Below, piece by piece: positions 5,898 through 55,508 of a DNA stretch of 64,000 nucleotides (its first letter is position 1; each line of letters starts with the position of its first letter). The position numbers and the translations under genes were made by a program. The stretch lies in IMG/VR virus record IMGVR_UViG_3300037502_002960, positions 1-64,000 of that record; one strand, 5' to 3'. The notes below the pieces were generated by a model. It was not told the origin of the DNA. It saw only the letters and a program-made list of their open reading frames with translations, and ran no database searches. The stretch comes from a virus.

Positions 5898-5899
5898 TC

Positions 5900-6397: not shown

Positions 6398-6419
6398 TTT
6401 TTCACCCCTTATTAGTAAT

Positions 6420-6448
6420 ATTATACCATTAATTTTAATTTATGTCAA
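6420..6448 (-). promoter_or_regulatory. SigmaA-type promoter upstream of the permuted amidase
   Basis: Minus strand TTGACA-N17-TATAAT. Confidence 0.7.
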
Positions 6449-6459
6449 ATATTACAATA

Positions 6460-7233: not shown

Positions 7234-7264
7234 TTCTTCACCCCTTTAAAAAGAAGGAGCGGAA

Positions 7265-10200
7265 TTATCTCCCGCTCTTTTTAACCTCTTTGAGTATTTC
7301 TCTTGCGATATTTTTCTCGCTCTTTTTATCTGCACCATGCACATTAACAATAATGTCACCATATGTTACCGTAGAAATCGAACCTGCTGTCTGAAGTTTA
7401 TCCATGTGATTTGATGTTGAAACCTTAGGCAGTATGTTCTTAACTTTATCCATAATCTTTGCCGTGTCTAGTATGTTTTTAGTTTGATTTTCGTTTAAAA
7501 CAAGTTCTTTCTTATGTAACATAGCAATTCTGCCATCATCTCCAGCCCATTCGCCTGTGTAACCTCCACTCCTAAATGGAATTAAGAGTTTCTTACCAAC
7601 TTGTAATCTTCTAGGGTCTATCTTCGAGTTGGCTTCGGCTATTTTCTTCCATTGCAAAGAGTTACCATAGTATTTATTGGCTAAATCCCACATAGTATCA
7701 CCCTTTTTAATAGTATGGTATCTAGGTGATGGAGCAGGCTTAGGTTTACTAGAACTGCTTGAGCCACTAGAGCCAGTAGAGGATTTTGCTGTTGTTTGAG
7801 ACGGTTTTGAAGCTGTTGAACCAGAACCAGTGTAAGCTTTGTATTTGACTTCTTCAGCATCTCTTATGTTTTTAAGAATTCCTTCGAGTTCAAATGTTAA
7901 ATTTTTAACGTCCAAGTTGAACATGTTTTCAAACTCTTTCTTAATTTCACTAGAAAGATTAGCAAAGTTCTCACCAATACTATTGAAATTACCGTTAGCC
8001 ATCTCTTCTAATCTTTGATTCATAGTTTCTAATTCACCATTTAATGTTGAGAAGTTACCCTGGATAAACTGATTTCTCATTTCGCTCCAACGCTGTTCAT
8101 CGTTTATCATTTTCTCATAGAAAGCATTTACTGCAATTGATTCCTGTTCTAGCTTTTCTAACTTACTGTTGTAAGACGCTTCTTCAAAAGCTTTTTCTGT
8201 TTCAAATTTAGCAATTTGCTCTTCTCTTTGAGTGTTTATAGACTGTATGAAAAGCTCATCTTGTCTATTTTTTGTCATATCAACAATTTCTGCGTTTAAA
8301 TTTGTTAATTCTGTTTGCATTTCTGCAAGCTTTTTGCGCCCCTCTAAAGATGTATCACGAGATAAAATGGAGATTTTATTTGTTAAATCGGCTTTCTTTG
8401 CGTTCTTTTCGTTAAGTTGTTCTTTAAATTCTTCTTCATTTTTCTCTTGGTCAATTTTCTTAAGTTTTTCATCATAGACGGCATTTATTTTACTAATTTC
8501 TTCATCGTACTTATCCATCTTACTTTTATGAGCTTTTTCAAGCTCTTTTCTTTCAAAGTCGATTGCTTGTTGAGCCATAGTTTGCATTTGACTGTAATAA
8601 CTTTTAAGCTTTTCAATACCTCTATCAGCCACAGAGCCTCTGACATCTAAAATGTTTTTCTCTGCATTTAGTACAGAAATAGTTATATCTTCTAGCGACT
8701 CTTTTGCGTCTCTAAGTTTTTCCTCGACGTTTTTAGCCTCTTTAGATGATTTTCCATATTTTTTGACGGCATCATTATACATTTTTTGTAAATCACTAAC
8801 CATGTTCTTTGTGGTCGCCTGTTCTTTTCTAAGACTATTGGCTCTTTCTCCCAACAAGCTTAGTTCTTTTTTAATGTTATCTGGGTCAACAAGTCCAGCT
8901 ACCTCAATCTCGAATTCAATGTCATCTGTTTTGTCCTTGATGCCAGTTACAATTTTTTCATAATTTGTTGTGATTTCTGCAACCCAATCCTCGAACATCT
9001 GCGTTGTCTTTTCTTTAATTGAGTTGGTTACATCAATGACTTCTTTTTCTAAACTTTGAATTTTGCTAATATTTGATTCGTATTCTCTCATCAAATCATT
9101 ATATTTATCCCTTTGAGCTTTGGTGTGTTTACTTGTATTCTTAAGCGATGATAATTGTCTCTCTATAGCTTTTTGTCTGTTTTTAGTGTTAGACAAATCT
9201 TTCTTTTGAACGGCTAATAATCTTTGTTCTTCCGTAACAACCTGTTTAAGAGCGTTTCTGTATTTTAATGTTCCTTCGGTCATCGCATTCATTCTTGCTT
9301 CTATTTTACCTATATTACTATTTAGTGCACTAGCTTGTCTTTCCTCTTTATTGTAAGTAAATAAATCGGACAGCTCGTCTGCATAGGCAGAGAATTGGTA
9401 ATCACCATCTAAGTTTGTACCACCAACATAGACTGATTGTGATATAGTACCACTTGTTCCAGAACCTCCAGAACCACTAGTACCACTCTCACCGCTCAAA
9501 GCTCCTACAGAACCAGATTCTTGACCTATTCCACGTCCCATAAAGAAGTTTCTTATGCCACCAAATACCCCAGTTGAAGGTGTAGATGGGACTCTGTTTC
9601 CAGCAGATATAGCCCTGTTAGCTTTGGTAATATAAGTATCTAACGTTGACATAGCGTTTCTAGCTGATGTATTCATATTTATCACAGCAGTTTTAGCATC
9701 GTTTGCTGAACGTCTTATTTTATCTATGACATTTACCTGCTGTTTATGCTTGGTTATCATAGAGTTTGTATTTCTAGATACTCCAGATTTCATATCTTCA
9801 AAAGATTTTGAGCTTTTATCAGCCATATCATTGAATTTATCTCTAAAATTAACAATCTTCTCTACGTCAAGCTTTTCCAAAGATTTTTTAAGGTCTTTTA
9901 CTTTATCATCAGCCTTTTCAACTGAATCTTTAAGTTTGTCGATACCTTTTCTGTCAATTCTACTAGCTAAATTTTTAATATCTTTGAGAGCATCTTCTAA
10001 ATCATTTACAGCACTTTGTGCATTAATAGCACTCTCTCTTAATTCATCTATATCTCCTTTTGAATCAGAAAACAGCGAAGCAACAGAATCTAGAATGTTG
10101 CTAAACATATCTTTTAATGCCGTACCAATTTCCTCTAGTTTGCTAACTTTACCTTCTATTTGACCAAAAGTTCTATCTAAATCTTCTAGAGAAAGTTTTG

Positions 10201-25585: not shown

Positions 25586-27079
25586 CTATTTATCTCTAGC
25601 TCTAGCACCCTCATCGCCAATATCCTCAACCTCAGATTCTGGTCTACCTTCTGATTCTTCAATACCATCAGAACCCATGGTGTGACTACTAGCCAAAGGA
25701 ATTAAATTATGATGCAATTCAAACACATCATTTTCAAGTGTAATTAAATTTGTAAGTTCAATAGGGCTTAAACCTAATACAGCACCGATATGGCTTTTAA
25801 CTGGAATACCGTATTGAGCTGATTCAAGATACATCTTATGTTTCTCTTTTTCATTAAATCTAGTAACATCTAAAATATCTACACTAAACATAAGATTTTT
25901 AAAATTAAACTTAAGGTATCTGTTTAACCATCTTTCAATCTGGTTTAATACATCAAAAACAATATTTTCATCTGTCTTAATAGACATTTGTAAACCTTGT
26001 GATGTAGATTTATCTGCATTAAATAGTAATTGAGAAGTACCATTTCCAGACCAGAAGTCTCTTTCAGCTTTTGCGACACCATCACTGTCAGCCCTATCTT
26101 TGTCAAACTTAACTGTATCAATTGGCATAGGTGAAGTGATAACCCCAACATTATCTGGAACCGTTTCTGATGCTAAATTGTGGAAATACATCATTGTATC
26201 CATATCAATCATAAAGTCGTTGTTATCTTCAGAATCTTTTCTCATAGGAAGTTCTTGAGTAATTAACATATAATTACTAATCTCTTCTTTATTTTTTCTT
26301 AATCTCTTGAATCCTTCCATATCAAAAATTGCATCAAAACTTCCAGCAAACGGTGGAAATGTTTCTAACATAGACTCATTGATTTTAATACAAATAGTAT
26401 TCTGAGAATCAAGTTCAACCCAACTACCTAATCTTCTATCATTTACTTTTCTGTTTTTCCATAAGATATATTTCTGTTGAACCTCTTCTGCCCAACTAGA
26501 AAGTTCATCTTCATTACCAGAAAAATGTTCCATATTTATACTAAAACTATAAACACCATCTTCAACAGAAGTTATCTTTGCGATTGAGCTGTCAATTTTT
26601 TGTATATAAAAATCATTCTTTGTTTTATGTACATAGCCAAAAAACACATCTTCGACAAAAGCTACATTTAATAGCTTGGTAAATTCGTGTTTTATATTTA
26701 AAACTTTTAAGAATTCTGCAACTTGATTATATTGCTTTAAAATCTTAGTTTTATCTATACCTGCCAAACTAACAGATGGTACTAATACATGCGCAAAGGT
26801 TGGCATTTCTGCAAAGTGCCTAACCAATCTTTGATATTGTGGGCTTTTTGCATATAATAATTTTGATACATCAACTAGTTTTTTCTGATTTTTTTCTAGT
26901 TTAAATCCTTCTAAAAATGTCTGAATATCACTTTGCTTATATTTGGAAAGTAAAGATTTGCTGTTCAAATCCCTTGATAAATCATTAATAACTAACTTAG
27001 CAAAATCTTCTCTTTTAAAAGACATAGAATTTCTTCTGATATTATCAACATTCCTCACGTCTCTATCATTAGTCGTCAT
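25586..27079 (-). CDS. Portal protein (YonE-like)
   Basis: 497 aa directly after the terminase; QIERWLNR, IPLASSHT motifs. Confidence 0.8.
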   Translation of the reverse strand: MTTNDRDVRNVDNIRRNSMSFKREDFAKLVINDLSRDLNSKSLLSKYKQSDIQTFLEGFKLEKNQKKLVDVSKLLYAKSPQYQRLVRHFAEMPTFAHVLVPSVSLAGIDKTKILKQYNQVAEFLKVLNIKHEFTKLLNVAFVEDVFFGYVHKTKNDFYIQKIDSSIAKITSVEDGVYSFSINMEHFSGNEDELSSWAEEVQQKYILWKNRKVNDRRLGSWVELDSQNTICIKINESMLETFPPFAGSFDAIFDMEGFKRLRKNKEEISNYMLITQELPMRKDSEDNNDFMIDMDTMMYFHNLASETVPDNVGVITSPMPIDTVKFDKDRADSDGVAKAERDFWSGNGTSQLLFNADKSTSQGLQMSIKTDENIVFDVLNQIERWLNRYLKFNFKNLMFSVDILDVTRFNEKEKHKMYLESAQYGIPVKSHIGAVLGLSPIELTNLITLENDVFELHHNLIPLASSHTMGSDGIEESEGRPESEVEDIGDEGARARDK

Positions 27080-27094
27080 TCATATCACCCCTAT

Positions 27095-29120
27095 CTATTC
27101 GAAAGTTCTATATTTTGGTTTTTTAACTGCAACATAACCTGTTGCATTAAACTTAGGTCTATTTTTCTTGCGCTGATTTTTCTTTTCTTCAAGGTATATA
27201 TAGTAGAGTCCGTATGAAACTGCAGAATATCTATCCTTTTCCATTTGGCTTGATACACGCTTGACTCTAGTTTTATTGCCCTGTGCTTCGAATGTCAAGT
27301 TCATAACTTCATCAACGAATAATGATGTTTCCACGTGTGGAATCAATTGTTGTGCAAGTTTTTCAGAATCTTTTTCTTTACTCTCTTCTTTTATGACATT
27401 TTCACTAACAAGTAATTTTAGGTCATGGTTTGAAATGGTAGCCATAAAGTGGTTATGTATATCTGATGCACTTGTCTCTTTTGTGTTAGACATGACATTA
27501 AATATAAGTGGTAGTGAATTTGGTTGTTTATATTTATCATAACTGCTATCATTAACAACAGAATATGAAGGAAATCTGTCTTCTTTTACAAGATAGTCTA
27601 TCAAACCTCTACCTAAACCATTACCATCGACTACAACCATAGATGCATTATATTTGCTAACAAGTTCTTTAACGTAAATTGATTGTTTTTCAAAGTGCAT
27701 ATTGCCTTTATATGTATGTATATTAACTAGGTGTTTAATATAAGTCCCATTACCTCTTGCTGTAAGTTTAAATACAGCAATTGCTGTTGTTGCTGTCTTT
27801 TTCTTTTCTGAACGTGCAACGTCAACAGACAATACGTATTTTACATCAGATTTAACTTTTAAAGCTTCTAACTCTGATTTCACCAATACTCTTGATTTTT
27901 CCAAGTCTTTTAGTTGAACCAAGCTGTTCTCGCTTGAACCAGTCCACACACTCATATATTCTCTCAATTTGTTATCGTGAGGGCTTTTTATCTCTCACTT
28001 CTAGGAGTTTCCCCCATTATACCTTGTTAATTCAAGGCTAGTTCAGCATACATTTTCACCTTCGTACGTTAGTATGTTAAGGTGTTGGACGCTCTTGGCA
28101 GAATTATATTCTAATTTAATAGTTTCATCTGCTATGCGTTACGATACTACATATTTTTTATGATATATAGTTATCTCGGTATTACCATATCTAATTAATA
28201 TTAAAGTTAGGTTTCACCGATATCGCCCAATAATAATTCTGAATATTTCTAATCAGAACGCCAAAAAATTTAGCATATTGAAGTGGACTCATTGACGGGT
28301 CATTTTTTACCTCTTCTATGTAAGCTGGGTCTAGTTGCTCAAACATAACTGGTAAAGTCCAATCATTACCAATCACAAAAGCTGATTTGCCCATAGCCAT
28401 TTCTGTCATAACGCTAAATAATTGTTCCCAAGCATACGACTGTTTTGAACTTGCCGTAGTAACGTAGCTCAATTGTTTATGGATATCATATTTTGAAACT
28501 TTACCATCTGCACCCTTACGGTTGTTTGCTAGTAATGGTAATAGTACCTCACCGATAATTTCTCTGTGTTTTTCCATACTAACAATCTCTTCAAAACTAA
28601 GTCCGTGTCTTCTGAGACCACGTGAACCTTGACTCGCAACAACAATATCTAAGATACTGCCGTTCCAAAACGTAAGCCTTGTAAAGTCTTTTGCAAAAGT
28701 ATGTTTTTTAACTTCGCCTTTTAACAAGGGAATAAAATTCCAAATAGCCTCTATATTAGCTTGACTGATTTGGGCGGCTTGGTCTTTTTGTGGCGCAACC
28801 AAAGATAATTTAATTCCTGGATAAAATATACATTTAAGATACATACTTAAAATATTTAGGAAAGATTTACTCGTTCCCCTAGTAGATGTGATGTACTAAT
28901 AAACCTTCTTGTATCTCGCCATAATTCTTAAAAATAATCTCTGAAAAGGGTAAAGTTCAAAAGAACCGTCTTTAGGCTTTATATAGTCTATAAATAAATC
29001 TGGGTAGTATTGAAAAAACGCTAACATATTTGCAAATATTGGTAGCATATCTTCAACGTTTTTAACATTAGTTCCTTGAACATTCTCTAATTCAGACCAT
29101 GGTTTCCACTTAGAAGTCAT
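27095..29120 (-). CDS. terL: Terminase large subunit, split: exon 1 29120-28272 (in-frame TAG at 28896-28898), group I intron, exon 2 27964-27095
   Basis: The three track ORFs join into one reading frame of about 572 codons: LYPFQR (adenine binding), TRGTSKS (Walker A), LSFEE (Walker B), spliced QYAREYMSVW, SVDVAR and KDRYSA (nuclease). Confidence 0.85.
27965..28271 (-). mobile_element. ORF-less group I intron (307 nt) in the terminase gene
   Basis: Exon 1 ends GCU; intron starts AAAUUUUUUGGCG (P1/P10 guide) and ends in G. Core AUCGGUGAAACCU..GGUAAUACCGAG; P7 GCAUA/UAUGC. Removal restores the reading frame. Confidence 0.88.
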
Positions 29121-31525: not shown

Positions 31526-31577
31526 AAACTATCACCTCAAATGTTCAGAATATTCAGAATATTTTAATTAAAAAAAA

Positions 31578-33538: not shown

Positions 33539-33613
33539 TGGTGGACTTGGAGAATCCCGACATCTCAACCTTTCCCTTATGAGGGGAATGCTCTTCCTTT
33601 GAGCTACAAGTCC
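33539..33613 (-). tRNA. tRNA-Ile2 (CAU, lysidine type; Met not excluded), CCA encoded
   Basis: GGACUUG/CAAGUCC-A-CCA; anticodon arm UUCCC-CUCAUAA-GGGAA resembles phage Ile2 tRNAs; atypical T loop GUCGGGA. Confidence 0.8.
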
Positions 33614-36493: not shown

Positions 36494-36523
36494 TTAAACA
36501 CCGCCCTTAATTATTATATATTA

Positions 36524-36626
36524 AGTATATCATTATTTTTTACTTTTGTCAAGTAAAAAATATACAATATTTCAAATATTCTGAATATTTTTTACCTTTG
36601 ACATAAATAAAAAATGATGTTATAAT
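36524..36626. promoter_or_regulatory. Divergent sigmaA promoter pair with a CodY-like triplet between the -35 boxes
   Basis: Minus: TTGACA(36552-36547)-N17-TATACT. Plus: TTGACA(36598)-N17-TATAAT(36621). AATATTTCA-AATATTCTG-AATATTTTT at 36566-36592. Confidence 0.75.
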
Positions 36627-36665
36627 CTTAGCAGGTAGTTAAAAAATAGACTTGGTGGTGAAATA

Positions 36666-37484
36666 TTGATTGAAATTTTGCATGAGATAAAGAGAATGTA
36701 TGGCGAGGCTTACATACAAGTACCAAATAAGATTTTCAAAAATATATCTTCTGTTACAAATGATTCTAGACAAAACTCATTTTGCTTTTCATATATAACT
36801 TTGTTAGGATTTCTGTATAAATATACTGCTTACGTAAATCCAAATTTAAATACATATGTACAGGCAAAAGATATAAAGACTTTATTGGGCTACAGTGAAA
36901 AAACAAAGACAATCAACAGGTTAATAAAGGAAAACGGTATTCTAGAGGACAAAGGTTTTATAAAAACAACAAAAAAGATACCTGTATACGTAAGTTATAG
37001 TGATGATGAAATAAACGGTTATAAAATTATAGAGTTTACAACATTAGATAATATAAAAAACAGAGAAGAATACGATATGTTTAAAAAAATTATAAAAAAC
37101 AGAAACTACAAAATTCAAGAACCGATATATCTTTTTAATGTTGACGGGAAACACGGTACTCTCTATGACTACTCTAACACATTTAAAATAAATATATCTG
37201 AGTTTATTAAATTTATCGAAAACAAAGAAATGGGTAACATGGACATTATGTTTTATTATTATATTAAAAGTCAAACACAGAACAAAAACCATAGAGTTGC
37301 CCCAATATCAATATCATTACTAGAAAAGAATATTGGTTTTTCTAATTCTTCAATCTACAAAACAATAACAAAACTAGAAAAGCTAAATTTAATTTCGGTT
37401 ACAAAGAAAGGTTGGCAAAACATAAAAGATGGTAATAACCCAGAGCCAAATGATTTTTTCTTGAGTTACTTTTTAAGCAGGTAG
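36666..37484 (+). CDS. Winged-HTH DNA-binding protein, putative replication initiator
   Basis: 272 aa; two HTH-like segments (DIKTLLGYSEKTKTINRLIK; SISLLEKNIGFSNSSIYKTITKLEKLNLI); followed by long palindromes. Confidence 0.5.
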   Translation: MIEILHEIKRMYGEAYIQVPNKIFKNISSVTNDSRQNSFCFSYITLLGFLYKYTAYVNPNLNTYVQAKDIKTLLGYSEKTKTINRLIKENGILEDKGFIKTTKKIPVYVSYSDDEINGYKIIEFTTLDNIKNREEYDMFKKIIKNRNYKIQEPIYLFNVDGKHGTLYDYSNTFKINISEFIKFIENKEMGNMDIMFYYYIKSQTQNKNHRVAPISISLLEKNIGFSNSSIYKTITKLEKLNLISVTKKGWQNIKDGNNPEPNDFFLSYFLSR

Positions 37485-37612
37485 CTAAAGTAGAGAAATA
37501 TAATATATTATCTATTAACTAATATATATTTAATTTAGATATATATAATATTAAGATATATATTAAGTGTATTATATTTCTCTGTTTAAGCTACCTCCTA
37601 AAAAAGTAACTC
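37463..37612. repeat. Long inverted repeat with AT-rich core, copy 1
   Basis: Arms of about 43 bp, GAGTTACTTTTTAAGCAGGTAGCTAAAGTAGAGAAATATAATA and its near complement. Confidence 0.9.
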
Positions 37613-37790
37613 TTATTTTTTATTATTTACCACATAAGCAATACTATATGTTAGTGCTGGTTTTGTTTTATTCTTATAACGTATATGAGGACAAAAATAA
37701 GGCTATTCTAGGCTGTTTAAAACGTTGTTTAATGTATTTTATCGTTGGATATTTAAAAACGCCTTAAACGGCTTTATTTTAATTCTCACA

Positions 37791-37930
37791 AGCAGGTAGC
37801 TAAAGTAGAGAAATATAATATATTTAATATATATATAACACTATATTAAATATATATCTAAATGTATTATATTAATATATATATAGTATATTATATTTCT
37901 CTACTTTAGCTACCTCCTTAGAAAGTAACT
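37791..37930. repeat. Long inverted repeat with AT-rich core, copy 2
   Basis: AGCAGGTAGCTAAAGTAGAGAAATATAATATA...TATATTATATTTCTCTACTTTAGCTACCTCCT. Confidence 0.9.
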
Positions 37931-38074
37931 TAAAATCCTTTTAAAACTGTTTTTAATTAATCTTGATAAATCATACTAAGAAGATATTAAAACGTCACTA
38001 CAGGCTTTATTTTAGCTCTCAAGCACATTTAAATGTCTCAGACAATGTAAAAATAAATATTTGTATTATTTTTC

Positions 38075-38103
38075 TTGACAAAAACAGAAAAGTATAATAT
38101 AAT
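38075..38103 (+). promoter_or_regulatory. SigmaA promoter
   Basis: TTGACA-N17-TATAAT; equivalent promoters at 39154, 41447, 43577 and (TTGACT) 46590. Confidence 0.75.
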
Positions 38104-38124
38104 AAAGTTATAATAACTTAGGAG

Positions 38125-48119: not shown

Positions 48120-48930
48120 TTAATGTGAGTCTCAGTTTTTATACTGAGGCTTATTTTTTTGGTCAATTTTAATATAGGTATGGTGGTTTGGGTAGTGATT
48201 TATTTGAAAAGTAAAAAATATACCCCCTCCCATGCGTGAATCTGGGTATATGTAAATTTTGTGGCACTATATGTAGATTGAGTATTTTTTAATGACCGTA
48301 CATATTGAGGATATTTAGTAATTTTTGGGTGACATTATAGTGTTTAAAAGGGCTAGAAACGTTGGTGTTAAAGGATTTTTGGTAGTTGGTGGTGGTGATA
48401 TTATGGTCAAGTTATGGTTTGGGTGAAAATTTTCAATCGTATGGAAGAGATTTTAGGGGTGGGAAATTATATAATATGGAAGATTAGGTTGGGTTAAGGT
48501 TGGATTGGGGTGAGAGGTTGTGAAAGGCTGATGTAGATAGGGTTTGAGGGTGTTTTAGGTGTGGATAAACAGGTGGATTTAGGGTTTTTTTATGTAGATT
48601 TAGGGTGGATTTAAGGTTAATGTGGAGTGATTTTGAGGTTGTATTTTTGCGTGGACGAGGTTTGATTATGGGTGATTGGGTGTGTTATGGAGGTGATTTA
48701 GGGTGATGGATGTTGACAAGAGATTGAGATAATAGGGTTAATAGAGGGGATTTTAGACGATGTTGAAAAAAGAGTGGGAAATGGGTTTTACGGATGGAAA
48801 AGGGTGTAAATGGGTGAGATTGGGGTGGGATATGGAGAAAATGGGATAGAGGTGAAAATGAACACGGAGTGTGGGAGTTGGAGTGCTATACACATTTTGA
48901 GAACTGGATTGGAAGAAAATGGTAAAAAAC

Positions 48931-48958
48931 TACCCCTATAAGGTACGTTATAGGGACT
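48931..48958. other. dif-like tyrosine-recombinase site (11-6-11)
   Basis: TACCCCTATAA-GGTACG-TTATAGGGACT at the G-rich/C-rich switch between convergent operons. Confidence 0.6.
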
Positions 48959-49475
48959 CCCACCTGGTAGAATATGGCAGGGATAAATGGAAAATTGTGG
49001 TAACCTTGATTGGAAGATTACGGTATTTTACTGTAAGATTATACCAAAGTTTATATCTGTAAAATATGGTAAACCTTCCCACAATCGCCACCTATTGTTA
49101 ACACGGCTTGTTTGGTCTTAGACTTCCAACTACCCTTAGTAACCTCCCTTCCCTCTCTCACTAAATAACTTATAGTAACCTACTTACTTTTTGTAACCAA
49201 CCTGAACCAACCCCACAACCTCCAACCCTAAAAAAAGGACCAATTCACCACCTACCAATTTTACCAAAAATTCCCAAACTAAAAAATCCTGATCCCCTGA
49301 TCCCTACTCTCTCAGACCCTCACCAAGTGAAACGAACAATACAACTATACATCTTTTAATGTTTCATTCTCTCTAATCGCCTTCTAGCAACATCACCAGG
49401 ACAACCAACCAACCAGCCTATATAACTAAGCATATAAAAAAACCTAGCGACCATAGTCACCAGGTTTTCATCTTA

Positions 49476-50681
49476 TTAGTGGTTATGCGCTTCACATGTT
49501 AACCCTAATACCTTGTTTAATAGCTTAGTGTTCAATCTAATTCTTACAACGTTGTGATATTCATCTATATCATATTCTTCATTATAAGCTGTTACTCTGC
49601 TTTCAAACTCTATCTTCTCTTCTACGTCCTCTTCATATTCAATATAAACATAATACGAACCCGAACCATCGCACATTGGACAGGACACGTCCCGATAATC
49701 GTATTCCTCAGTTATGGGGTTCTCAAAATCTAACTCAATCTCTCCGTCCCCCTCGCACAACGGGCAATCTATTTCCACGTCATCGCTAAATGTTACATAG
49801 CTTGTAACATAATCAGTATATGAAGTATAATAACCACCGTCGAAATCATTTGTTATAACTTCACTCTCACTTAAGCGACCGCTTACCTCTTTCCCAAATA
49901 CTCTTTTATTTAATTCCTGGATTAATTCTAACCCTCTCTCTAATGTTTGAGTGTTTTCATTCTTTCCATAGAGCTTTGTGGGTACTAATATATTAAATCC
50001 TTCATAGTTAACCTCTTTCATAATAACCCTTGCCATAAAACTATCACTTATATTGTCAATGCTTTTCACGTCTTCCAGGTTCTCATGTAAGAAAGCCACG
50101 TATAAAGAAGTATCATAGACCGAACCGATTAAGCGCTGATTGTATCTATCTCCTCCATGATATGTTTTTTGACATGATGACCAGCTCCCGTCATTATAGT
50201 TAGTCATTCCAGCGACTACGTGAGGCATAGCAGATATAGTTATATATGCATCGCCTTCAATCTTTTCAATTGAACTGTACCAATCTAAAACCGTCTGATT
50301 AATACCCATTTTATTTAACTTCTTGGATAACTTCGTCCCGTTTTCTAATCGATTATTTATAAAGTTATCATAAGTTAAAGAGTTTAAAAACTCTTTAACT
50401 TCTTTCACTTTATCGAACTTTTTCTTTTTCTCGTCTTCACTATCGTATAATCTAGCATAATCTAAGACCCCGATTATTAATTCTTTAAAGGTGTTAAACT
50501 CTTTTAATAACTGAGTTTTAACTTTATAAGTGCCTTCACCAATATGAACCCGTTCCCGATATTCAAAATCGAACATATCACCAGCTTCTAACATAGAGAC
50601 CATCTCATCATATGAATCATTGAAAGAGATACACTCTTTCATAATATCACCTAAAAACTCAACTTTTTTACTGTTTGTCAT
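49476..50681 (-). CDS. Hypothetical protein with DnaJ-type CxxCxGxG motifs
   Basis: 401 aa; WSSCQ; CPLCEGDG and CPMCDGSG; RBS AAGGGAG. Confidence 0.75.
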   Translation of the reverse strand: MTNSKKVEFLGDIMKECISFNDSYDEMVSMLEAGDMFDFEYRERVHIGEGTYKVKTQLLKEFNTFKELIIGVLDYARLYDSEDEKKKKFDKVKEVKEFLNSLTYDNFINNRLENGTKLSKKLNKMGINQTVLDWYSSIEKIEGDAYITISAMPHVVAGMTNYNDGSWSSCQKTYHGGDRYNQRLIGSVYDTSLYVAFLHENLEDVKSIDNISDSFMARVIMKEVNYEGFNILVPTKLYGKNENTQTLERGLELIQELNKRVFGKEVSGRLSESEVITNDFDGGYYTSYTDYVTSYVTFSDDVEIDCPLCEGDGEIELDFENPITEEYDYRDVSCPMCDGSGSYYVYIEYEEDVEEKIEFESRVTAYNEEYDIDEYHNVVRIRLNTKLLNKVLGLTCEAHNH

Positions 50682-51275: not shown

Positions 51276-51581
51276 TTAATTGTTAACCCACTCACTGATA
51301 GCTTGAGCAGGATTTTTTTCAAGCTCTTCTTGTCTCTCCTTCCACTCTTTAACCTCTTCATTTTTTACCATTGTTAACGTATATTGACCGTTGTCAATGG
51401 TTATTCTATGTTTAATATCTTTATGAATATTTAAATCGGTTACACGCTTTAAATACTCTACTGTTTCATAGTATTCAATAGCTACAATGTAACGACTATA
51501 TCCAATCGTTAAACCTGCTAAAATTGAAGCTATAAACCCGTATACCAAAACATGTTGACCGAACTTTTTTAACTTTCCCAT
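51276..51581 (-). CDS. Hypothetical membrane-anchored protein
   Basis: 101 aa, N-terminal hydrophobic helix. Confidence 0.6.
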   Translation of the reverse strand: MGKLKKFGQHVLVYGFIASILAGLTIGYSRYIVAIEYYETVEYLKRVTDLNIHKDIKHRITIDNGQYTLTMVKNEEVKEWKERQEELEKNPAQAISEWVNN

Positions 51582-51654
51582 TTTCTACCATTCCTTTCAA
51601 CTTCCATTTTTTGGAAAGAGTCTGTTTCTTTTGTTTCCCTCTTTCGTTACACTC

Positions 51655-51684
51655 ATCATAGCATTGTATAAGGACTCTTGTCAA
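51655..51684 (-). promoter_or_regulatory. Promoter of the leftward radC operon
   Basis: TTGACA-N18-TATGAT with TG extension. Confidence 0.55.
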
Positions 51685-51696
51685 ACGACCAACCGC

Positions 51697-52499
51697 AAAC
51701 CCTACAGCCCCAAGGGATACAGCTACTGTAAAAAATTTACATTGTATGAAATCGGTTGCACTATACATAGTTATTCACTGTTTATTCACTTTTTAGCACA
51801 CCTGTCCCCACGAAAAACTGTATGCAAACGGTTGCGCACTAGGGGTATAAATTAAAAAAACTTTTGTGTGAACGAAAATAAAATAAACCGCTTCAACCCT
51901 ACAGCCCCAACGGCTCCAGGACTTGCGACCTTGTGAAATAAAAAATACTTTCATGAAACACTGTGCAACAATGATTTTTTTTATGTATATTGATGCATAT
52001 TCATACTATAAGCGCTTTCAAGAAGGTATACCCCTCCAGGTACTGAAAACCCTACAGCGCCAAGGGATTGAAGCACTTTTACCATTTTATGTATAATGTA
52101 TATCTGTGAATATTCATTGAATAACCATACGGGGTATTTTGATCCCTTTTCTTCTATATAATAGTGAAAAATCGTAACGAAACCAAGCCGAAAAACGCTA
52201 TATAATAGAAGAAACTCGGTAAGGACTTTTTACCCATAAAAACGCTGCCTTTATCGTGACTATATTCCCACATGAAACGCTGCGTTTTCTAGTTCAATAG
52301 TCACGCGCGTTTTAAAGCCGTTTTAAACCCCTCTGAGACGTTTTAAGCCTTCAAGGTACAAACACCTTAAGCAACCTTGTTTATACCCCTTTTCAAAAGT
52401 ACCCCACGGGGTATATACCCTAACGGGGTATATGTATTTTACTTGTGAACTTGACAAAATCGAAAAAGTGTGAACCCTTACTCTCCCAAGGGATACAGC
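51697..52499 (+). repeat. Four dispersed copies of AACCCT-N9/10-A(G/C)GG
   Basis: Copies at 51697, 51895, 52047 and 52473; consensus AACCCTACAGCCCCAAGGGATACAGC. Confidence 0.8.
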
Positions 52500-52582
52500 C
52501 GTTTTTTAAAATAAAAAGTTTGTGAAAAATTTCGATACCCTAGGTGGTATATAAAAAAATGTACCTATACCCCTAGGGGTAT
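52028..52582. promoter_or_regulatory. Cluster of six CsoR-family-like operators (TACC..GGTA)
   Basis: Sites at 52028, 52122, 52399, 52415, 52535 and 52567 (perfect palindrome ATACCCCTAGGGGTAT). Confidence 0.55.
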
Positions 52583-52736
52583 CATATGGTTAAAAAATGT
52601 AAAAAATGGTATATTTTTTTAAAATTGTAAAAAAATAACTATCCATATAAGTTTACATTATTTTACTGTAAAAAAATAACTTATATATAAGTTTCCAATA
52701 TTTACCAATTTTAAAAAAGTTATTTTTTACCAAATG

Positions 52737-53291
52737 AATTTTCAGACAATTCAGATAATTAAGAATATTCAAATAATTTTAAATTTTCAGAAAATTCATA
52801 ATAGTCAGAAAATTCAAAAAAATAAGATAATTCTAAATATTTTAAATTGTTAGAATATTCAGATAATTCAAACAATTATGACTATTCTTAATATTCTAAA
52901 TTTTCTGAAAATTCAAAAAATTCTGAAAATTCAAAAAATTCTGAAAATTAAGAATAGTCAGACAATTCTAAATTTTCAAACAATTATGAAAATTCAAACA
53001 ATTCATAATATTCATATAATTAAAAATTTTCAGATAATTCTAAATAATCTAAATTTTCAGATAATCCAAACAATTCATAATATTCTAAATAATCAGATAA
53101 TTCAAAAAATTCATAATTTTCTGATAATTCTAGCAGACCAAAAATGATCCATTTTTAATTATCAGAAAATTCATAATATTCAAACAATTCAGAAAATTCA
53201 ATTAATTAAATATTCAGAAAATTCAGATAATATAGCAAGTTTTCAGATAATTCATAATATTCAGACAATTCAGAATTTTCAAAAAATTCAG
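52737..53291. repeat. 9-bp tandem array (AAWWTTCWG) equivalent to overlapping CodY boxes
   Basis: 44 in-register units at 52737-53132 plus about 13 more; perfect AATTTTCWGAAAATT at 52782 and 52899. The repeat is directly seen; CodY binding is inferred. Confidence 0.85.
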
Positions 53292-53626
53292 CCCTGCGAA
53301 GCTTATTTTTAAATAATAAAATAAATAATAAATAAAAAATTAAATATAGATTCTCACCCCCTTATTAACAGCGAGCCTAAAATATTACGGGTGATTTTTG
53401 AAAATCAAAAAAATTTTTTGAAATTTTTTAAAAATTTGCTTCTATTATTAACAGAAACCCTAAAAAATTACGGGCAATTTTTGAAAGTTAAAAAATTTTT
53501 AAATTTTTCTTTCCTATATAATATAGAAGAAAAAAATATTTTTAAATTTTATACATATAATCTGTTGACAAAAGACAAAGATAATGATATAATAGGTTTA
53601 TAATAAAAAAACAAGGAGATGTTAAC

Positions 53627-53896
53627 ATGAAAAACATTGATGTAATTAAAGCTTTTGTAAATGGAGCAGGTAAAGGAAAAAATAAAAGACTTTCTATTAA
53701 AGGTAATAAACTGTTCGACTACAATACTATTATTTGTGAAAAAACTAATAAAGGGTACAACTTAAATAAAACAAAATACAGTAAATCAACAAGTGCCGTT
53801 CAAAGTATGTTGTCAAAAGAAATTGACTCAAATAACATTAATGGAAAAGTTACCTTGTTTGATAATGTAGAAATCAATTCAAGCGATTTAAAATAA
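53627..53896 (+). CDS. Hypothetical early protein
   Basis: 89 aa, RBS AAGGAG; LFDYNTII..KYSKSTS. Confidence 0.7.
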   Translation: MKNIDVIKAFVNGAGKGKNKRLSIKGNKLFDYNTIICEKTNKGYNLNKTKYSKSTSAVQSMLSKEIDSNNINGKVTLFDNVEINSSDLK

Positions 53897-53933
53897 CTAA
53901 GGATGAAATATAGTAAAACAAAAATCAAATAGA

Positions 53934-54257
53934 TTGGTGGACGACAATATGGAATCAAATAATTATATTATTGAAAGAAATATTAAATCAAGAGAAGACC
54001 TTTTAAATGGTATAAAATTATTACTTGAATCATATGTAAAAAGAACGAATGAATCTGGAGATGACAAATTAATCAATCACTTCTTAGAATTAATTCAACA
54101 TAGATATGATAACTTCATTGTAAGACATGAATATGTGGACGGTAATGGGCAACATGAGCCTTTAAAGGTTACAAAAATATCATATCTTATTGACCATGTA
54201 TTCACTATTAAAAAAGATATAGACACTGACAAGATTGTACTTGAATCATACATTTAA
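53934..54257 (+). CDS. Hypothetical early protein
   Basis: 107 aa; start codon uncertain. Confidence 0.6.
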   Translation: MVDDNMESNNYIIERNIKSREDLLNGIKLLLESYVKRTNESGDDKLINHFLELIQHRYDNFIVRHEYVDGNGQHEPLKVTKISYLIDHVFTIKKDIDTDKIVLESYI

Positions 54258-54345
54258 AAGTTGTAAAAGGTTTCAAGCTAATAAATAAATCAAAATTCTT
54301 TTATACCTTTTATATGCATATTATATTATAGTTTTTATGCACAAA

Positions 54346-54546
54346 CAAATATATATAGTGCACTACAAACCTATATATGCACACATAATATGCATAATAC
54401 TATATATGGTATGATAAAAACATATATACACTATATATAGATTAAATCCATGAATATAAACCATTTTTACCCATATATAGACGAATTTTTACTACACATA
54501 CTACATGTAGTGTCTACATATAGGTTATACATACTACATATGGACA
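54346..54546. promoter_or_regulatory. Cluster of NrdR-box-like palindromes
   Basis: ACACTATATATAGATT (54428), ATACTACATGTAGTGT (54498), ATACTATATATGGTAT (54397) and weaker copies. Confidence 0.6.
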
Positions 54547-54952
54547 TTTTAGCCAATTTTTGCTTAATAAAATTAACCTTTTATAAAATATATAAATTTT
54601 AGGTAAAATATATCCTAAAATTTATATAAAAGTATATATACTAATTCGTCGCCAGAAAACGGTTCGAGTTTCTACAGACTCTTATAAAACTGGTTATGTA
54701 TACCCCTATATTACCTATATGTGTGCCCAAAACCGTTTCAATTTCTACGGGTCGCCCAATTTTCTGATTGACCCCACCCCCTAAAAGGGTTTGAGTTTTT
54801 AAAACCGTTTCAAAATTATGAACCTATATGAAGCCAGAAAAGGGTTTGAAATTTTAAAATCAATTTGGAAAATAAAAACGATATACCCCGTTGACAAAAC
54901 TAAAGATAAATGGTATAATTAAATCAATAAATTAGAAAGGTTGTGAAAATAA

Positions 54953-55096
54953 ATGTGGACATGGTTTTGGTTTGTATTATGTATGATTCAAATGCCTTTA
55001 ACAATGCTATTATTACATAGTTTAATTCTTGTTAAAAAGAAATATAACTATGAACAAGAATTTAAAAGAGCTATTGATAATCATATAAAAAAATAA
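54953..55096 (+). CDS. 47-aa single-pass membrane protein (not in the ORF track)
   Basis: MWTWFWFVLCMIQMPLTMLLLHSLILVKKKY.. with its own promoter and AAAGG RBS. Confidence 0.6.
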   Translation: MWTWFWFVLCMIQMPLTMLLLHSLILVKKKYNYEQEFKRAIDNHIKK

Positions 55097-55184
55097 AAAC
55101 AAAAATTTTTATTAAAGAGACTGTTGACAAACGATTAAAATAATGATATAATTATATTATAGAAAAGGAAAGGGAGTTATTAAA

Positions 55185-55508
55185 ATGAACGAATTAAAAG
55201 TGTATAAAAACTTAAGTCAAAATGTAAAGAATGAAATTGAAGAGAATTTAGAATTCATTTTTGAAAAATATGAATCAGTAGAATCATTAATTGAGCAAGG
55301 TGAAATTAGATTATTTAATAGAAGTCAATTAATTGAATTTCTATTCTTTGACGATAGCAATAGTGATAAAGAGGCATTGCTAGAATTGTTAAACACAACA
55401 GATACACAAATTCAAGGATACAATGATGGATTAGATTATATCGTTCACAATAATTACGACAACGTTTTTGAATTATCAAATGGCATGTATTTGTTTGTAT
55501 GGCACTAA
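55185..55508 (+). CDS. Hypothetical acidic early protein
   Basis: 107 aa, RBS AAGGGAG. Confidence 0.7.
   Translation: MNELKVYKNLSQNVKNEIEENLEFIFEKYESVESLIEQGEIRLFNRSQLIEFLFFDDSNSDKEALLELLNTTDTQIQGYNDGLDYIVHNNYDNVFELSNGMYLFVWH

What the first reader, a model, noticed from the sequence alone, without database searches (positions are those of the whole stretch)
51690..54870. Candidate new system: a phage 'operator sponge' locus with arrays of binding sites for several host metabolic repressors
Seen: about 2.5 kb of non-coding DNA organised in successive blocks, each multiplying a different short palindrome. These are LacI/CcpA(cre)-like and ARG-box-like sites (51.75-52.13 kb), TACC..GGTA dyads (52.03-52.58 kb), a 9-bp array (52.74-53.29 kb), CTANATNTAG dyads (54.35-54.55 kb) and AAAACSGTT/AAAAGGGTT repeats (54.65-54.85 kb). 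Known: they resemble consensus operators of Firmicutes CcpA/LacI, ArgR/AhrC, CsoR, CodY and NrdR. No amino-acid, nucleotide-reductase or copper gene is adjacent, and copy numbers far exceed what one promoter needs. Inference: the DNA acts as a decoy that titrates host repressors, more strongly as the genome replicates, de-repressing amino-acid, peptide-uptake and dNTP supply without encoding a protein. Alternatively it integrates host metabolic state into the lysis/lysogeny decision at the start of the early region. I know of no described phage locus like this, but I could not search the literature.
Basis: partly seen in the sequence, partly recalled or inferred. Interest (0 to 1): 0.92.

Follow-up and report, generated by a model that had tools for sequence, protein, structure and literature searches.

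The report
Phage control hub with CodY-box array
A large phage keeps about two kilobases of non-coding DNA between its first two gene sets, and its biggest block looks like a long landing strip for CodY, the host's nutrient-sensing regulator, which suggests that the phage reads or drains its host's nutritional signal.

Summary
Window 51.58-53.63 kb and 54.26-54.95 kb are two non-coding blocks, split by two small genes. They lie between the divergent early operons of a Tsamsa-like giant siphovirus. The same hub exists in Tsamsa, pW2, BcoS-136 and FADO. Staphylococcal Sextaecvirus phages have it with the same grammar.

The 9-bp array (about 57 units, 52737-53291) is a phased track of overlapping CodY boxes:
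- 16 sites have at most 2 mismatches, against 0.2 in shuffles; two are perfect.
- 12 of 15 gaps between them keep the 9-nt register that CodY needs for cooperative binding.
- The same box sits as isolated palindromes at the sigma/Rep promoters and before the exonuclease/packaging genes.
- Similar arrays occur in unrelated phage contigs.
- No phage CodY gene was found.

The TACC..GGTA dyads are a family-conserved phage element, not CsoR sites. ARG boxes are at chance level. The cre-like and NrdR-like sites are few. Relatives carry LexA-, Fur- and cre-like boxes in the same hub.

Best reading: a control hub that reads host global regulators, here CodY. A replication-coupled CodY sink is possible but untested. 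Binding itself is inferred.

The parts
51655..51684 (-). Leftward early promoter (TTGACA, 18 nt, TATGAT) that bounds the hub on the left
   Evidence: 11 of 12 consensus positions, with TG before the second hexamer
51698..52498 (+). Four copies of a 25-bp direct repeat (starts 51698, 51895, 52048, 52474), all in the same orientation
   Evidence: family D8, 80-100% identity. A 19-nt core is also exact in 7 unrelated IMG/VR stretches.
51746..52021 (.). cre-like sites at 51746 (perfect to the 15-nt degenerate consensus), 51822 and 52007. The first two belong to a 20-nt direct repeat.
   Evidence: 7 positions against 0.89+-0.98 in shuffles.: perfect sites are no more frequent than the control over the whole record.
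52148..52222 (.). Inverted pair of the conserved 17-mer element (arms 52148-52163 and 52200-52222)
   Evidence: Exact 17-mer in Tsamsa, pW2 and BcoS-136; reverse-strand variants in Tsamsa and SscS-F1; 38 IMG/VR and >=120 bacterial stretches.
52029..52581 (.). Six TACC(C)-N-(G)GGTA dyads (52029, 52122, 52400, 52416, 52536, 52568)
   Evidence: 4 exact against 0.03 in shuffles.: ATACC-N6-GGTAT occurs once in all of Tsamsa and once in all of pW2, each time in the hub.
52626..52703 (+). 40-bp tandem duplication just left of the array
   Evidence: period 40, 1.9 copies, 86% matches, family D16
52737..53132 (.). Array block 1: about 44 units of 9 bp in one register, forming overlapping CodY-box-like 15-mers
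   Evidence: 36 of 44 in-register 15-mers have <=5 mismatches, 18 of 44 have <=3, 2 are perfect. No out-of-register 15-mer has <=3.
53157..53291 (.). Array block 2: about 14 more units in a shifted register
   Evidence: 14 in-register 15-mers, 6 with <=3 mismatches
53362..53500 (+). Two copies of a 56-nt direct repeat (TTAACAG...AAATATTAC type). Relatives have 4-5 copies at the same place.
   Evidence: family D11 (84% identity); (BcoS-136 x4, FADO x5)
53510..53535 (.). Palindromic variant of the 17-mer element, just upstream of the rightward promoter
   Evidence: Similar variants sit before the promoter in Tsamsa and BcoS-136.
53565..53593 (+). Rightward early promoter, perfect TTGACA-17-TATAAT
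   Evidence: 12 of 12
53627..54257 (+). Two small early genes (89 aa and 107 aa) that interrupt the non-coding DNA
   Evidence: The 89-aa product is 34% identical to Tsamsa gp10 and to BcoS-136 gp66. No family found.
54258..54952 (.). Second non-coding block: CTANATNTAG / NrdR-like dyads (54397-54523), five 22-nt direct repeats (54656-54859) and a perfect promoter (54891-54919)
36575..36589 (.). Remote isolated palindromic CodY-like box between the two -35 hexamers of the divergent sigma-like and Rep-initiator genes
   Evidence: 13 of 15 to consensus; gene identities
31540..31563 (.). Remote pair of overlapping CodY-like boxes (9-nt offset) directly upstream of the ribosome-binding site of the exonuclease gene, at the head of the packaging and head genes
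   Evidence: gene identity

Best explanation
The locus is the non-coding control hub between the two divergent early operons of a Tsamsa-like giant siphovirus. By synteny it lies a few kb inside the left genome end. The hub is a conserved organ of this phage group and a mosaic of binding-site families.

Its largest block, about 57 phased 9-bp units, is a continuous track of overlapping CodY boxes. It is most likely coated cooperatively by the host's branched-chain amino acid/GTP sensor CodY. The same box occurs as isolated palindromic operators at the sigma/Rep divergent promoters and in front of the exonuclease/packaging genes. The phage therefore most likely couples its programme to the host's nutritional state through CodY. 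The array may serve as the nucleation or reservoir site.

Most other blocks (dyads, the 17-mer pair, the TTAACAG direct repeats) are family-conserved elements for phage factors or for other conserved factors. They are not CsoR or ArgR operators.

Shown: the repeats, their statistics, their conservation, and the match to the CodY consensus and register. Inferred: that CodY binds, and what binding does.
For: CodY match of the array:
- 16 sites with <=2 mismatches in the 557-bp array against 0.19+-0.47 in 300 shuffles.
- All 8 sites of the 83-kb record with <=1 mismatch lie in the array.
- 36 of 44 in-register 15-mers have <=5 mismatches; 0 out-of-register 15-mers have <=3.

Published CodY behaviour (passages read in PMC10415144):
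- The 15-nt CodY boxes overlap by 6 nt, which gives a 9-nt step.
- Cooperativity is lost if the step changes.
- Longer oligomers can assemble on more than two overlapping sites.

Other evidence:
- Isolated palindromic boxes sit at promoter-proximal places.
- No CodY-type HTH gene in 5 of 5 phage records.
- A distantly related Mammaliicoccus phage with the same genome plan has the same box clustered in its hub: 7 of its 12 sites, against a control of 2. Only 3 of our ORFs hit its first 50 kb.
- Unrelated IMG/VR contigs carry non-coding arrays with 13-16 such sites against about 0.1 in shuffles.
- The hub is a positional orthologue in Tsamsa, pW2, BcoS-136 and FADO.
- In a ~90% identical relative the hub is as conserved (88-93%) as the neighbouring gene (about 86%), and its array differs by a net 126 bp, which is 14 units.
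- Relatives carry LexA-, Fur- and cre-like boxes in their hubs.
Against: - No binding data exist, and the host is unknown. The source is a subsurface metagenome.
- The array unit is asymmetric: C at position 7 in 34 of 43 units, but the mirror G at position 9 in only 19 of 43. That is odd for a palindromic dimer site and fits a directional repeat bound by another protein.
- The Bacillus relatives have arrays at the same place with quite different units of about 19-20 bp, and they have no excess of CodY-like sites (3 against controls of 2, 8 and 5). A function common to the family therefore cannot depend on CodY.
- The array lies 270-830 bp upstream of the rightward promoter, not over a core promoter.
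- One Sextaecvirus-like record with the same array is labelled as an Arcanobacterium phage. I recall, without checking, that this host group lacks CodY.
- The extra arrays were found with a pattern taken from this array, so their number is biased.
- Only 51% of the genome was searched for a phage-encoded binder.
Confidence: 0.45

Rival explanations
1. The array and the other repeats are iteron-like sites for phage-encoded proteins only. They would build a nucleoprotein complex that controls early transcription or genome handling. The likeness to CodY boxes is convergence on an AT-rich TTC/GAA palindrome.
For: - Every relative has an array at the same place but with its own unit: ACTTAC type of about 19 bp in Tsamsa and pW2, CAAACT type of about 20 bp in BcoS-136. 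Lineage-specific units are typical of sites that co-evolve with a phage protein.
- The unit is asymmetric (C7 34 of 43, G9 19 of 43).
- The dyads and direct repeats are family-conserved.
- Half of the genome is unseen.
Against: - The array holds two perfect and six one-mismatch CodY 15-mers and keeps the exact 9-nt register.
- The same box occurs in phages that share almost no detectable proteins with this one.
- The Rep initiator appears to use a different site, with AGCAGGTWGCT arms at its own leader and in the palindromes downstream of its gene. The array units of the relatives do not recur at their Rep promoters.
Confidence: 0.28
2. One reading: a protein-free decoy that titrates several host repressors at once (CcpA, ArgR/AhrC, CsoR, CodY, NrdR) to de-repress host supply pathways as the genome replicates.
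For: - Many more CodY-like sites than a promoter needs, and most are not at a promoter.
- Rough numbers allow titration. About 57 overlapping sites would hold about 114 protomers per genome copy. The 'generous estimate' in PMC5314169 is 10,000 protomers per B. subtilis cell (passage). The arithmetic is my inference.
- The cre-like, dyad and NrdR-like motifs exceed shuffles.
Against: - ARG boxes are at chance level.
- The dyads are conserved in relatives without G-tracts, and 4 of the 6 here have a TAC-X8-GTA spacing rather than X9.
- There are only 3-5 cre-like and 3 NrdR-like sites, too few to titrate anything.
- The hub is conserved in relatives that lack these motifs.
- The isolated boxes at phage promoters point to regulation of the phage itself.
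Confidence: 0.07
3. A DNA-entry signal like the injection stop signal of T5: a repeat-rich untranslated region near the first-entering end that binds a host DNA-binding protein to pause or anchor the incoming genome while the leftward pre-early genes are expressed.
For: - By synteny with Tsamsa, whose 284-bp terminal repeat lies at record position 1, the genome end should lie in the 48.1-49.5 kb gap, so the hub is 2-5 kb inside it.
- The T5 region is described as a large untranslated region full of repeats, inverted repeats and palindromes, with 8 boxes for host DnaA (abstract of 10.1101/866236).
- In three other contigs the CodY-like arrays lie beside terS, which is near the packaging start.
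Against: - DnaA boxes are not enriched (1 against 0.76 in shuffles).
- The ends of this phage were not determined.
- Nothing is known about stepwise injection in this group.
- The T5 model itself is a proposal.
Confidence: 0.07
4. A lytic origin of replication: iterons plus a very AT-rich unwinding region, activated by divergent transcription.
For: - The 16-21% GC array is flanked by strong divergent promoters.
- Direct repeats in 2-5 copies sit beside it.
- The minimum of cumulative GC skew lies near 53.3-53.5 kb.
Against: - The Rep initiator gene lies 15 kb away. It has its own conserved AT-core palindromes directly downstream, and their arms recur in its leader.
- There are no DnaA boxes.
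- The skew minimum coincides with the switch in gene orientation, which can explain it without an origin.
Confidence: 0.1

Closest known systems
Overlapping CodY operators of Bacillus, Staphylococcus and Enterococcus (for example bcaP and ureA)
   Same: The 15-nt consensus is the same. Boxes overlap by 6 nt, so sites step by 9 nt. Binding is cooperative and can extend beyond two dimers (PMC10415144 passages; PMC5314169 passages).
   Different: Known operators have two or three boxes at a promoter. Here there are about 57 in a row, mostly away from core promoters and on a phage genome. Binding was not tested.
Injection stop signal region of phage T5 and its relatives
   Same: A large untranslated region near the genome end, next to the first genes expressed. 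It is crowded with repeats and palindromes, conserved in plan across relatives, and contains an ordered set of boxes for a host DNA-binding protein (abstract of 10.1101/866236).
   Different: The boxes there are for DnaA and the hosts are Gram-negative. No DnaA boxes are found here, and two-step injection is unknown for this group.
Spo0A boxes in phages phi29 and Nf
   Same: The phage genome carries binding sites for a host global regulator, so that its development follows the state of the host (abstract in the search listing for PMC2731898).
   Different: Those phages have a few sites at early promoters and origins, not a phased array, and the regulator is a different one.
Titration loci such as E. 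coli datA for DnaA and the incA iterons of P1 for RepA (recalled, no call)
   Same: A cluster of binding sites that acts by holding a regulator, and whose effect grows with copy number.
   Different: Those loci hold a replication initiator. Here the candidate is a metabolic regulator of the host, and titration is not shown.
Synthetic tandem decoy sites for a transcription factor in yeast
   Same: Tandem repeats of binding sites sequester a factor and sharpen the response of its targets (abstract in the search listing for PMC3322331).
   Different: That is an engineered eukaryotic system, not a natural phage locus.
LexA (Cheo) boxes in temperate Bacillus phages (consensus recalled)
   Same: An operator for a host regulator placed at phage early control regions. 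Tsamsa and pW2 have such boxes at the left side of the homologous hub.
   Different: This phage has none with <=1 mismatch.

Membership tests
CodY operator (overlapping CodY boxes) | Match to the 15-nt consensus AATTTTCWGAAAATT | tested here: met
   2 perfect, 6 with one mismatch and 8 with two mismatches in 557 bp, against 0.19+-0.47 in 300 shuffles. Consensus confirmed in PMC5314169.
CodY operator (overlapping CodY boxes) | Neighbouring boxes overlap by 6 nt (9-nt register) | tested here: met
   44 in-register 15-mers average 3.9 mismatches; the other eight registers average 8.0-12.2. 12 of 15 gaps between sites are multiples of 9.
CodY operator (overlapping CodY boxes) | Two-fold symmetry of the box | tested here: inconclusive
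   The isolated boxes at 36575 and 31549 are perfect palindromes. In the array, C7 occurs in 34 of 43 units but G9 in only 19 of 43.
CodY operator (overlapping CodY boxes) | Bound by CodY of the host, which must encode CodY | not testable with these tools
   The host is unknown (subsurface metagenome). No phage CodY-type HTH gene in 5 of 5 records.
CsoR (type 2) operator | TAC-X9-GTA inverted repeat with G/C tracts | tested here: not met
   Passages of PMC3902906 give the rule. Here 4 of 6 dyads are X8. The homologous dyads of Tsamsa and pW2 are X8 without G-tracts.
CsoR (type 2) operator | Lies at a copper or sulfur gene, or a CsoR gene is present | tested here: not met
   No PF02583 match in 5 of 5 records. 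The neighbours are unrelated genes.
cre (CcpA) site | Match to the degenerate cre consensus (recalled) | tested here: inconclusive
   One perfect site and four one-mismatch sites in the hub, against 0.89+-0.98 positions in shuffles. Over the whole record, perfect sites equal the control count. A TAAGCG(C/T)TTT core recurs in the hubs of relatives (read by eye).
ARG box (ArgR/AhrC) | Match to the ARG-box consensus (recalled) above chance | tested here: not met
   8 against 8.35+-2.71; AhrC form 0 against 1.10
NrdR boxes | Pair of 16-bp palindromes about 31 bp apart, upstream of RNR genes | tested here: inconclusive
   Three boxes with 13-14 of 16 matches; 54397 and 54428 are 31 bp apart. The 15-16 bp spacer rule comes from the abstract in the listing. 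No RNR large-subunit gene in the 83-kb record.
Iteron-type replication origin | Iterons next to the initiator gene, an AT-rich unwinding element, host initiator boxes | tested here: inconclusive
   The repeats and the AT-rich tract are present. The initiator lies 15 kb away with its own palindromic elements. DnaA boxes are not enriched.
T5-type injection stop region | Untranslated repeat region near the first-entering end, with ordered DnaA boxes | tested here: not met
   The position near the end is inferred by synteny only. DnaA boxes: 1 against 0.76 in shuffles.
Transcription-factor titration (decoy) locus | Many sites for one factor away from promoters, and a measurable drop of the free factor | not testable with these tools
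   The first part is met for CodY-like boxes. The second needs an experiment.

The most novel reading that the evidence does not exclude
Phased arrays of CodY boxes are an undescribed, recurrent class of phage cis-element. They polymerise the host's CodY and work as a replication-coupled sink and timer. With one genome copy, CodY still shuts the phage's CodY-gated sigma/Rep and packaging promoters. As copies accumulate, the arrays drain the pool. About 114 protomers would be held per copy, against at most about 10,000 per cell. That would switch on the phage's late programme and at the same time de-repress the host's amino-acid and peptide supply regulon.
Probability: 0.2. Interest if true: 0.85.

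Novelty: new variant of a known kind. Interest (0 to 1): 0.7.

Why it matters
- If CodY coats this array, phages of Gram-positive bacteria have a direct, DNA-only way to read, and perhaps reset, the main nutrient sensor of their hosts. That bears on how phages time lysis, how temperate phages choose between lysis and lysogeny in starving cells, and how infection rewires host metabolism.
- It is directly testable, because a culturable staphylococcal-type phage carries the same array.
- It gives a first functional handle on the large non-coding hub of the Tsamsa-like giant siphoviruses. The two genome papers I searched for the terms 'intergenic' and 'non-coding' do not use them.

Tried and rejected
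Searches for DNA or RNA relatives:
- Megablast of the locus against named phages gave no match.
- Rfam at gathering score found only a tRNA at 33542-33613.
- A permissive Rfam scan of 47.9-55.2 kb gave 6 matches, all far below their thresholds.
- Sliding RNA folds gave low z-scores on both strands alike, as DNA palindromes would, so I did not pursue a strand-specific RNA.

Searches for close relatives of the hub:
- The RadC-like neighbour gave 80 loci of a widespread family. I dropped all of them as uninformative.
- The 89-aa protein gave none in viral contigs and one distant protein in the big protein search (DUF7632, below cut-off).
- The 401-aa protein gave none in metagenomes.
- A pattern from the direct repeat gave none in metagenomes.
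- A looser direct-repeat pattern gave 8 viral stretches. All are chance hits in coding-looking DNA, 7 of them the same gene, and all were dropped.
- Five named bacterial genomes gave only a 32-nt match.

Search for a phage-encoded binder:
- The array units of Tsamsa, pW2 and BcoS-136 do not recur at their Rep promoters.
- Our ORFs against the first 50 kb of the 90 kb of SscS-F1 gave 3 weak matches, none a DNA-binding candidate.
- No protein is common to the different groups of 17-mer loci.

Motifs and runs:
- ARG/AhrC, LexA, Fur, DnaA, Spo0A and Rex motifs are not enriched in this hub.
- No RNA holder was listed among the sequencing runs.
- All runs laid were contigs, so nothing can be said on ends, depth or expression.

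Papers:
- The paper on overlapping CodY sites by Wray and Fisher is not held.
- I opened no supplementary files. Supplements of PMC10415144 and PMC9703825 may hold site lists or genome maps that bear on this.
- 'Not in print' rests and on term searches inside two genome papers.

Full report
WHAT THE WINDOW IS. The window is the first 64 kb of an 83,359-bp IMG/VR virus record that CheckV rates about 51% complete. The likely source is a subsurface metagenome.

Its proteins place it with the giant Bacillus siphoviruses around Tsamsa (Joanripponvirinae and allies):
- The 401-aa ORF 49476-50681(-) finds 29 Bacillus phage records at 27-33% identity.
- The 272-aa ORF 36666-37484 finds 40 records, 38 of them over at least 80% of its length, where it is annotated as replication initiator or transcriptional regulator (Pfam HTH_36).
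- PhoH, an exonuclease, portal, a Dda/RecD-like helicase, a tyrosine recombinase and a small sigma-like protein are present.

ANATOMY.
- Three genes run leftward from a TTGACA-18-TATGAT promoter at 51684-51655.
- A perfect TTGACA-17-TATAAT promoter at 53565-53593 starts the rightward early genes.
- Further perfect promoters follow at 54891, 55124 and 56435.
- Between the two divergent promoters lie 1.9 kb without a credible ORF.
- Two small genes (53627-53896 and 53934-54257) separate this from a second non-coding block, 54258-54952.

From left to right the hub holds:
- four copies of a 25-bp repeat;
- cre-like sites;
- an inverted pair of a 17-mer-like element;
- CGTTTT/AACGCT words;
- six TACC..GGTA dyads;
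- a 40-bp duplication;
- the 9-bp array in two blocks;
- two copies of a 56-nt repeat;
- a palindromic 17-mer variant;
- the rightward promoter.

The second block holds CTANATNTAG dyads and five 22-nt direct repeats, and it ends in a perfect promoter. Logan contigs of the probable source run reproduce the hub without a difference, in two pieces (51418-53097 and 53068-55200). This is not independent support. Contigs of a second sample of the same study also match without a difference.

IS IT MORE THAN CHANCE? Yes for most blocks. The figures from block-wise dinucleotide shuffles are given under the observation check.
- CodY-like boxes, the dyads and cre-like sites are enriched.
- NrdR-like boxes are enriched weakly.
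- ARG/AhrC, LexA, Fur, DnaA, Spo0A and Rex motifs are not enriched.

A caution applies. Any repeated word beats a shuffle. What counts is how well a repeat fits an independently known consensus, and how many regulators one may compare it with.

THE ARRAY.
- The CodY consensus is in print (31 papers hold the string; passage in PMC5314169).
- The array has two perfect 15-mers and six with one mismatch. All eight sites of the 83-kb record with at most one mismatch lie in it.
- In the register set by the perfect sites, 36 of 44 successive 15-mers have at most 5 mismatches and 18 of 44 have at most 3. No 15-mer in the other eight registers has at most 3.
- The 9-nt step is the geometry described for CodY (passages of PMC10415144). 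Boxes overlap by 6 nt, cooperativity fails if the overlap is changed by one or two bases, and higher oligomers can form on more than two overlapping boxes.
- Outside the hub, the record has a perfect palindromic variant between the two -35 hexamers of the divergent sigma-like and Rep genes (36575). It also has a 9-nt-offset pair directly before the ribosome-binding site of the exonuclease gene, which heads the packaging and head genes (31540/31549).
- No CodY-type HTH gene was found in this record, Tsamsa, BcoS-136, pW2 or SscS-F1: 0 of 5, while the control genomes were detected.

Against CodY: the unit is lopsided (C7 in 34 of 43 units, G9 in 19 of 43), and no binding was measured.

THE HUB IS CONSERVED.
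- Tsamsa has gp1-gp9 leftward, a 1.5-kb gap (5743-7271) and gp10 onward rightward.
- BcoS-136 has a 2.2-kb gap, pW2 a 1.9-kb gap and FADO a mostly non-coding 1.7 kb at the same junction.
- Our first rightward gene is the orthologue of Tsamsa gp10 and BcoS-136 gp66 (34% identity; E 1e-15 and 1e-14).

The relatives share with our hub:
- the 17-mer (exact in Tsamsa, pW2 and twice in BcoS-136);
- the TTAACAG...AAATATTGC repeats (x4 in BcoS-136, x5 in FADO);
- a TAAGCG(C/T)TTT word;
- the dyad.

ATACC-N6-GGTAT occurs exactly once in the 169-kb Tsamsa genome and once in the 161-kb pW2 genome, each time in the hub. Those copies have no G-tracts. The CsoR rule read in PMC3902906 is TAC-X9-GTA with G-tracts, whereas 4 of our 6 dyads are X8. 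No CsoR-family gene is present. The dyads are therefore a family element, not CsoR operators.

Each relative also has an array where ours is, but with another unit. Those relatives show no excess of CodY-like boxes: 3 sites each, against reversed-pattern controls of 2, 8 and 5.

A Mammaliicoccus phage of the genus Sextaecvirus (SscS-F1, 90 kb) has the same genome plan. Its hub uses the same grammar: 17-mer variant, CodY-like 9-bp array, two direct repeats, promoter. Seven of its 12 CodY-like sites lie in the hub, against a control of 2.

HOST-REGULATOR BOXES IN THE HUBS OF RELATIVES.
- LexA-like boxes with at most one mismatch: Tsamsa has 9 (control 3). Four of them lie in 4111-6014, including the only perfect one at 5903. 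In pW2, 2 of 3 lie at the left edge of the hub.
- The Fur 7-1-7 motif with at most one mismatch occurs in only 1 of the 5 records. It appears as two overlapping sites at BcoS-136 26764-26784, inside its hub.
- BcoS-136 also has a perfect palindromic cre inside its hub, at 28138.
- These consensus strings are recalled, not taken from a call.

Together with the CodY boxes, this suggests that the hub is where these phages place operators for host global regulators, with a different regulator in different lineages.

A CLOSE RELATIVE. Contigs of two runs of another study ('organism A') cover most of the locus at 86-93% identity.
- 86.6% identity in the 401-aa gene (101 differences and 6 gaps in 754 nt).
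- 88.6% identity in 51744-52437.
- 93% identity in 52413-52770.
- About 91-93% identity in 52958-54221.

The non-coding hub is thus at least as conserved as the neighbouring gene. One joint skips 155 bp of the array with 29 other letters in between. The net loss of 126 bp equals 14 units.

ARRAYS ELSEWHERE. A pattern of two half-boxes 18 bp apart found 102 IMG/VR stretches. Most are giant-virus or coding repeats. Five stretches are non-coding arrays in phage-like contigs.

| Contig | Sites with <=2 mismatches |
|---|---|
| L293 | 16 |
| L362 | 13 (4 perfect) |
| L276 | 15, plus a second cluster of 6 |
| L331 | 5 |
| L316 | 4 |

- Shuffles give 0.01-0.14 sites for each of these arrays.
- L293 and L362 are alike.
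- The gaps between sites are often multiples of 9: 9 of 15, 6 of 12, 5 of 14, 3 of 4 and 2 of 3.
- In L293/L362 the array lies downstream of a small-terminase gene, beside eight AGAGTTGACGG repeats. In L331 it lies about 310 bp upstream of terS-HNH-terL-portal.
- Our proteins find almost nothing in these contigs.
- Nearest named relatives: Enterococcus and Listeria phages for the L293 primase. The result is unclear for L331 and absent for L276.
- The search was seeded with our own array, so the count is biased.

MECHANISM. I commit to the following reading. The hub is the cis-control region of the two early operons. Its array is a CodY track. Active CodY (rich conditions) polymerises on it and also occupies the isolated boxes at the sigma/Rep and exonuclease/packaging positions. 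In this way phage development is tied to host nutrient state.

Whether the array chiefly nucleates repression, insulates the two operons, or acts as a copy-number-dependent sink cannot be told from sequence. The sink is numerically possible. About 57 sites would hold about 114 protomers per copy, against a 'generous' 10,000 per cell (PMC5314169). The arithmetic is inference.

They are set out with their evidence in their own sections. The Rep initiator probably uses other sites. Arms of the AGCAGGTWGCT type flank AT-core palindromes just downstream of its gene and recur in its leader, in this phage and in three relatives.

KNOWN OR NEW. Host-regulator sites in phage genomes are known:
- Spo0A boxes in phi29/Nf (listing abstract of PMC2731898);
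- LexA boxes (recalled);
- DnaA boxes in the T5 untranslated region (abstract of 10.1101/866236).

Titration loci are also known (datA and incA, recalled; synthetic decoys, listing abstract of PMC3322331).

I found no paper on CodY boxes in phage genomes, nor on phage DNA decoys for host factors. The Tsamsa and Tyrovirus papers do not use the words 'intergenic' or 'non-coding'. I therefore rate this a new variant of a known kind.

LIMITS.
- Half of the genome is missing.
- The host is unknown.
- The genome ends were placed by synteny only.
- Several consensus strings are recalled.
- The conserved 17-mer and 19-mer remain unexplained (see the items noticed in passing).

Noticed in passing
window 52148-52222 and 53510-53535; loci L095-L132, L137-L256: A 17-mer (TATATAGAAGAAACTCG) is exact in the hubs of Tsamsa, pW2 and BcoS-136 and near-exact here. 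79 of 121 bacterial instances lie outside ORFs of 110 aa or more. In 12-13 Bacillaceae it directly follows the terminator of the EF-Tu gene, about 100 bp upstream of the S10 operon promoter. In other phages it lies between an ArpU-like activator gene and terS, or about 0.6 kb upstream of terL. I know of no binder.
   Followed up: partly
window 51698-52498; loci L258-L264: The 19-nt core of the 25-bp repeat (AACCCTACAGCCCCAAGGG) is exact in 7 IMG/VR stretches that otherwise share no DNA similarity with the hub.
   Followed up: partly
window 48120-49475: 1.35 kb of non-coding DNA between convergent genes, with extreme strand asymmetry: GC skew rises to +0.87, then falls to -0.52. By synteny with Tsamsa, whose 284-bp terminal repeat lies at record position 1 just beyond the gp1 homologue, this is the likely physical genome end. 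The ~90% relative has an indel here (370 bp replaced by 247).
   Followed up: no
window 36494-38124: The Rep-initiator gene (HTH_36) is followed by two roughly 140-bp palindromes with pure A/T cores. Their arms (AGCAGGTAGCT type) recur in the gene's own leader. The same layout is seen in Tsamsa, BcoS-136 and pW2. This is probably the Rep-dependent origin.
   Followed up: partly
loci L293, L362, L276, L331, L316: Unrelated IMG/VR phage contigs carry non-coding arrays of CodY-like boxes. Three of them lie beside a small-terminase gene, and one group lies next to eight AGAGTTGACGG repeats.
   Followed up: partly
L089 (Tsamsa) 4111-6014; pW2 record 111972-112473; BcoS-136 record 26764-26784 and 28138-28153: LexA-like, Fur-like and perfect cre-like boxes cluster in the homologous hubs of relatives. 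The consensus strings are recalled.
   Followed up: partly
window 33542-33613 (-): Rfam finds a tRNA here (50.9 bits) that ARAGORN did not report.
   Followed up: no
window 53565, 54891, 55124, 56435 and further places up to 81.5 kb of the record: Perfect sigma-A-type promoters with a shared extended context recur before many small early genes. The context is similar enough to be found by BLAST within the record.
   Followed up: no
record PQ358086.1 (locus L091): A 94-kb phage labelled Arcanobacterium phage TPWB06 has the Sextaecvirus gene order and the same CodY-like array as staphylococcal-type phages. Either the host label or the CodY reading needs checking.
   Followed up: no
window 52802-52958, runs X3 and X4: A ~90% identical relative in runs of another study has an array shorter by a net 126 bp, that is 14 units.
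   Followed up: no
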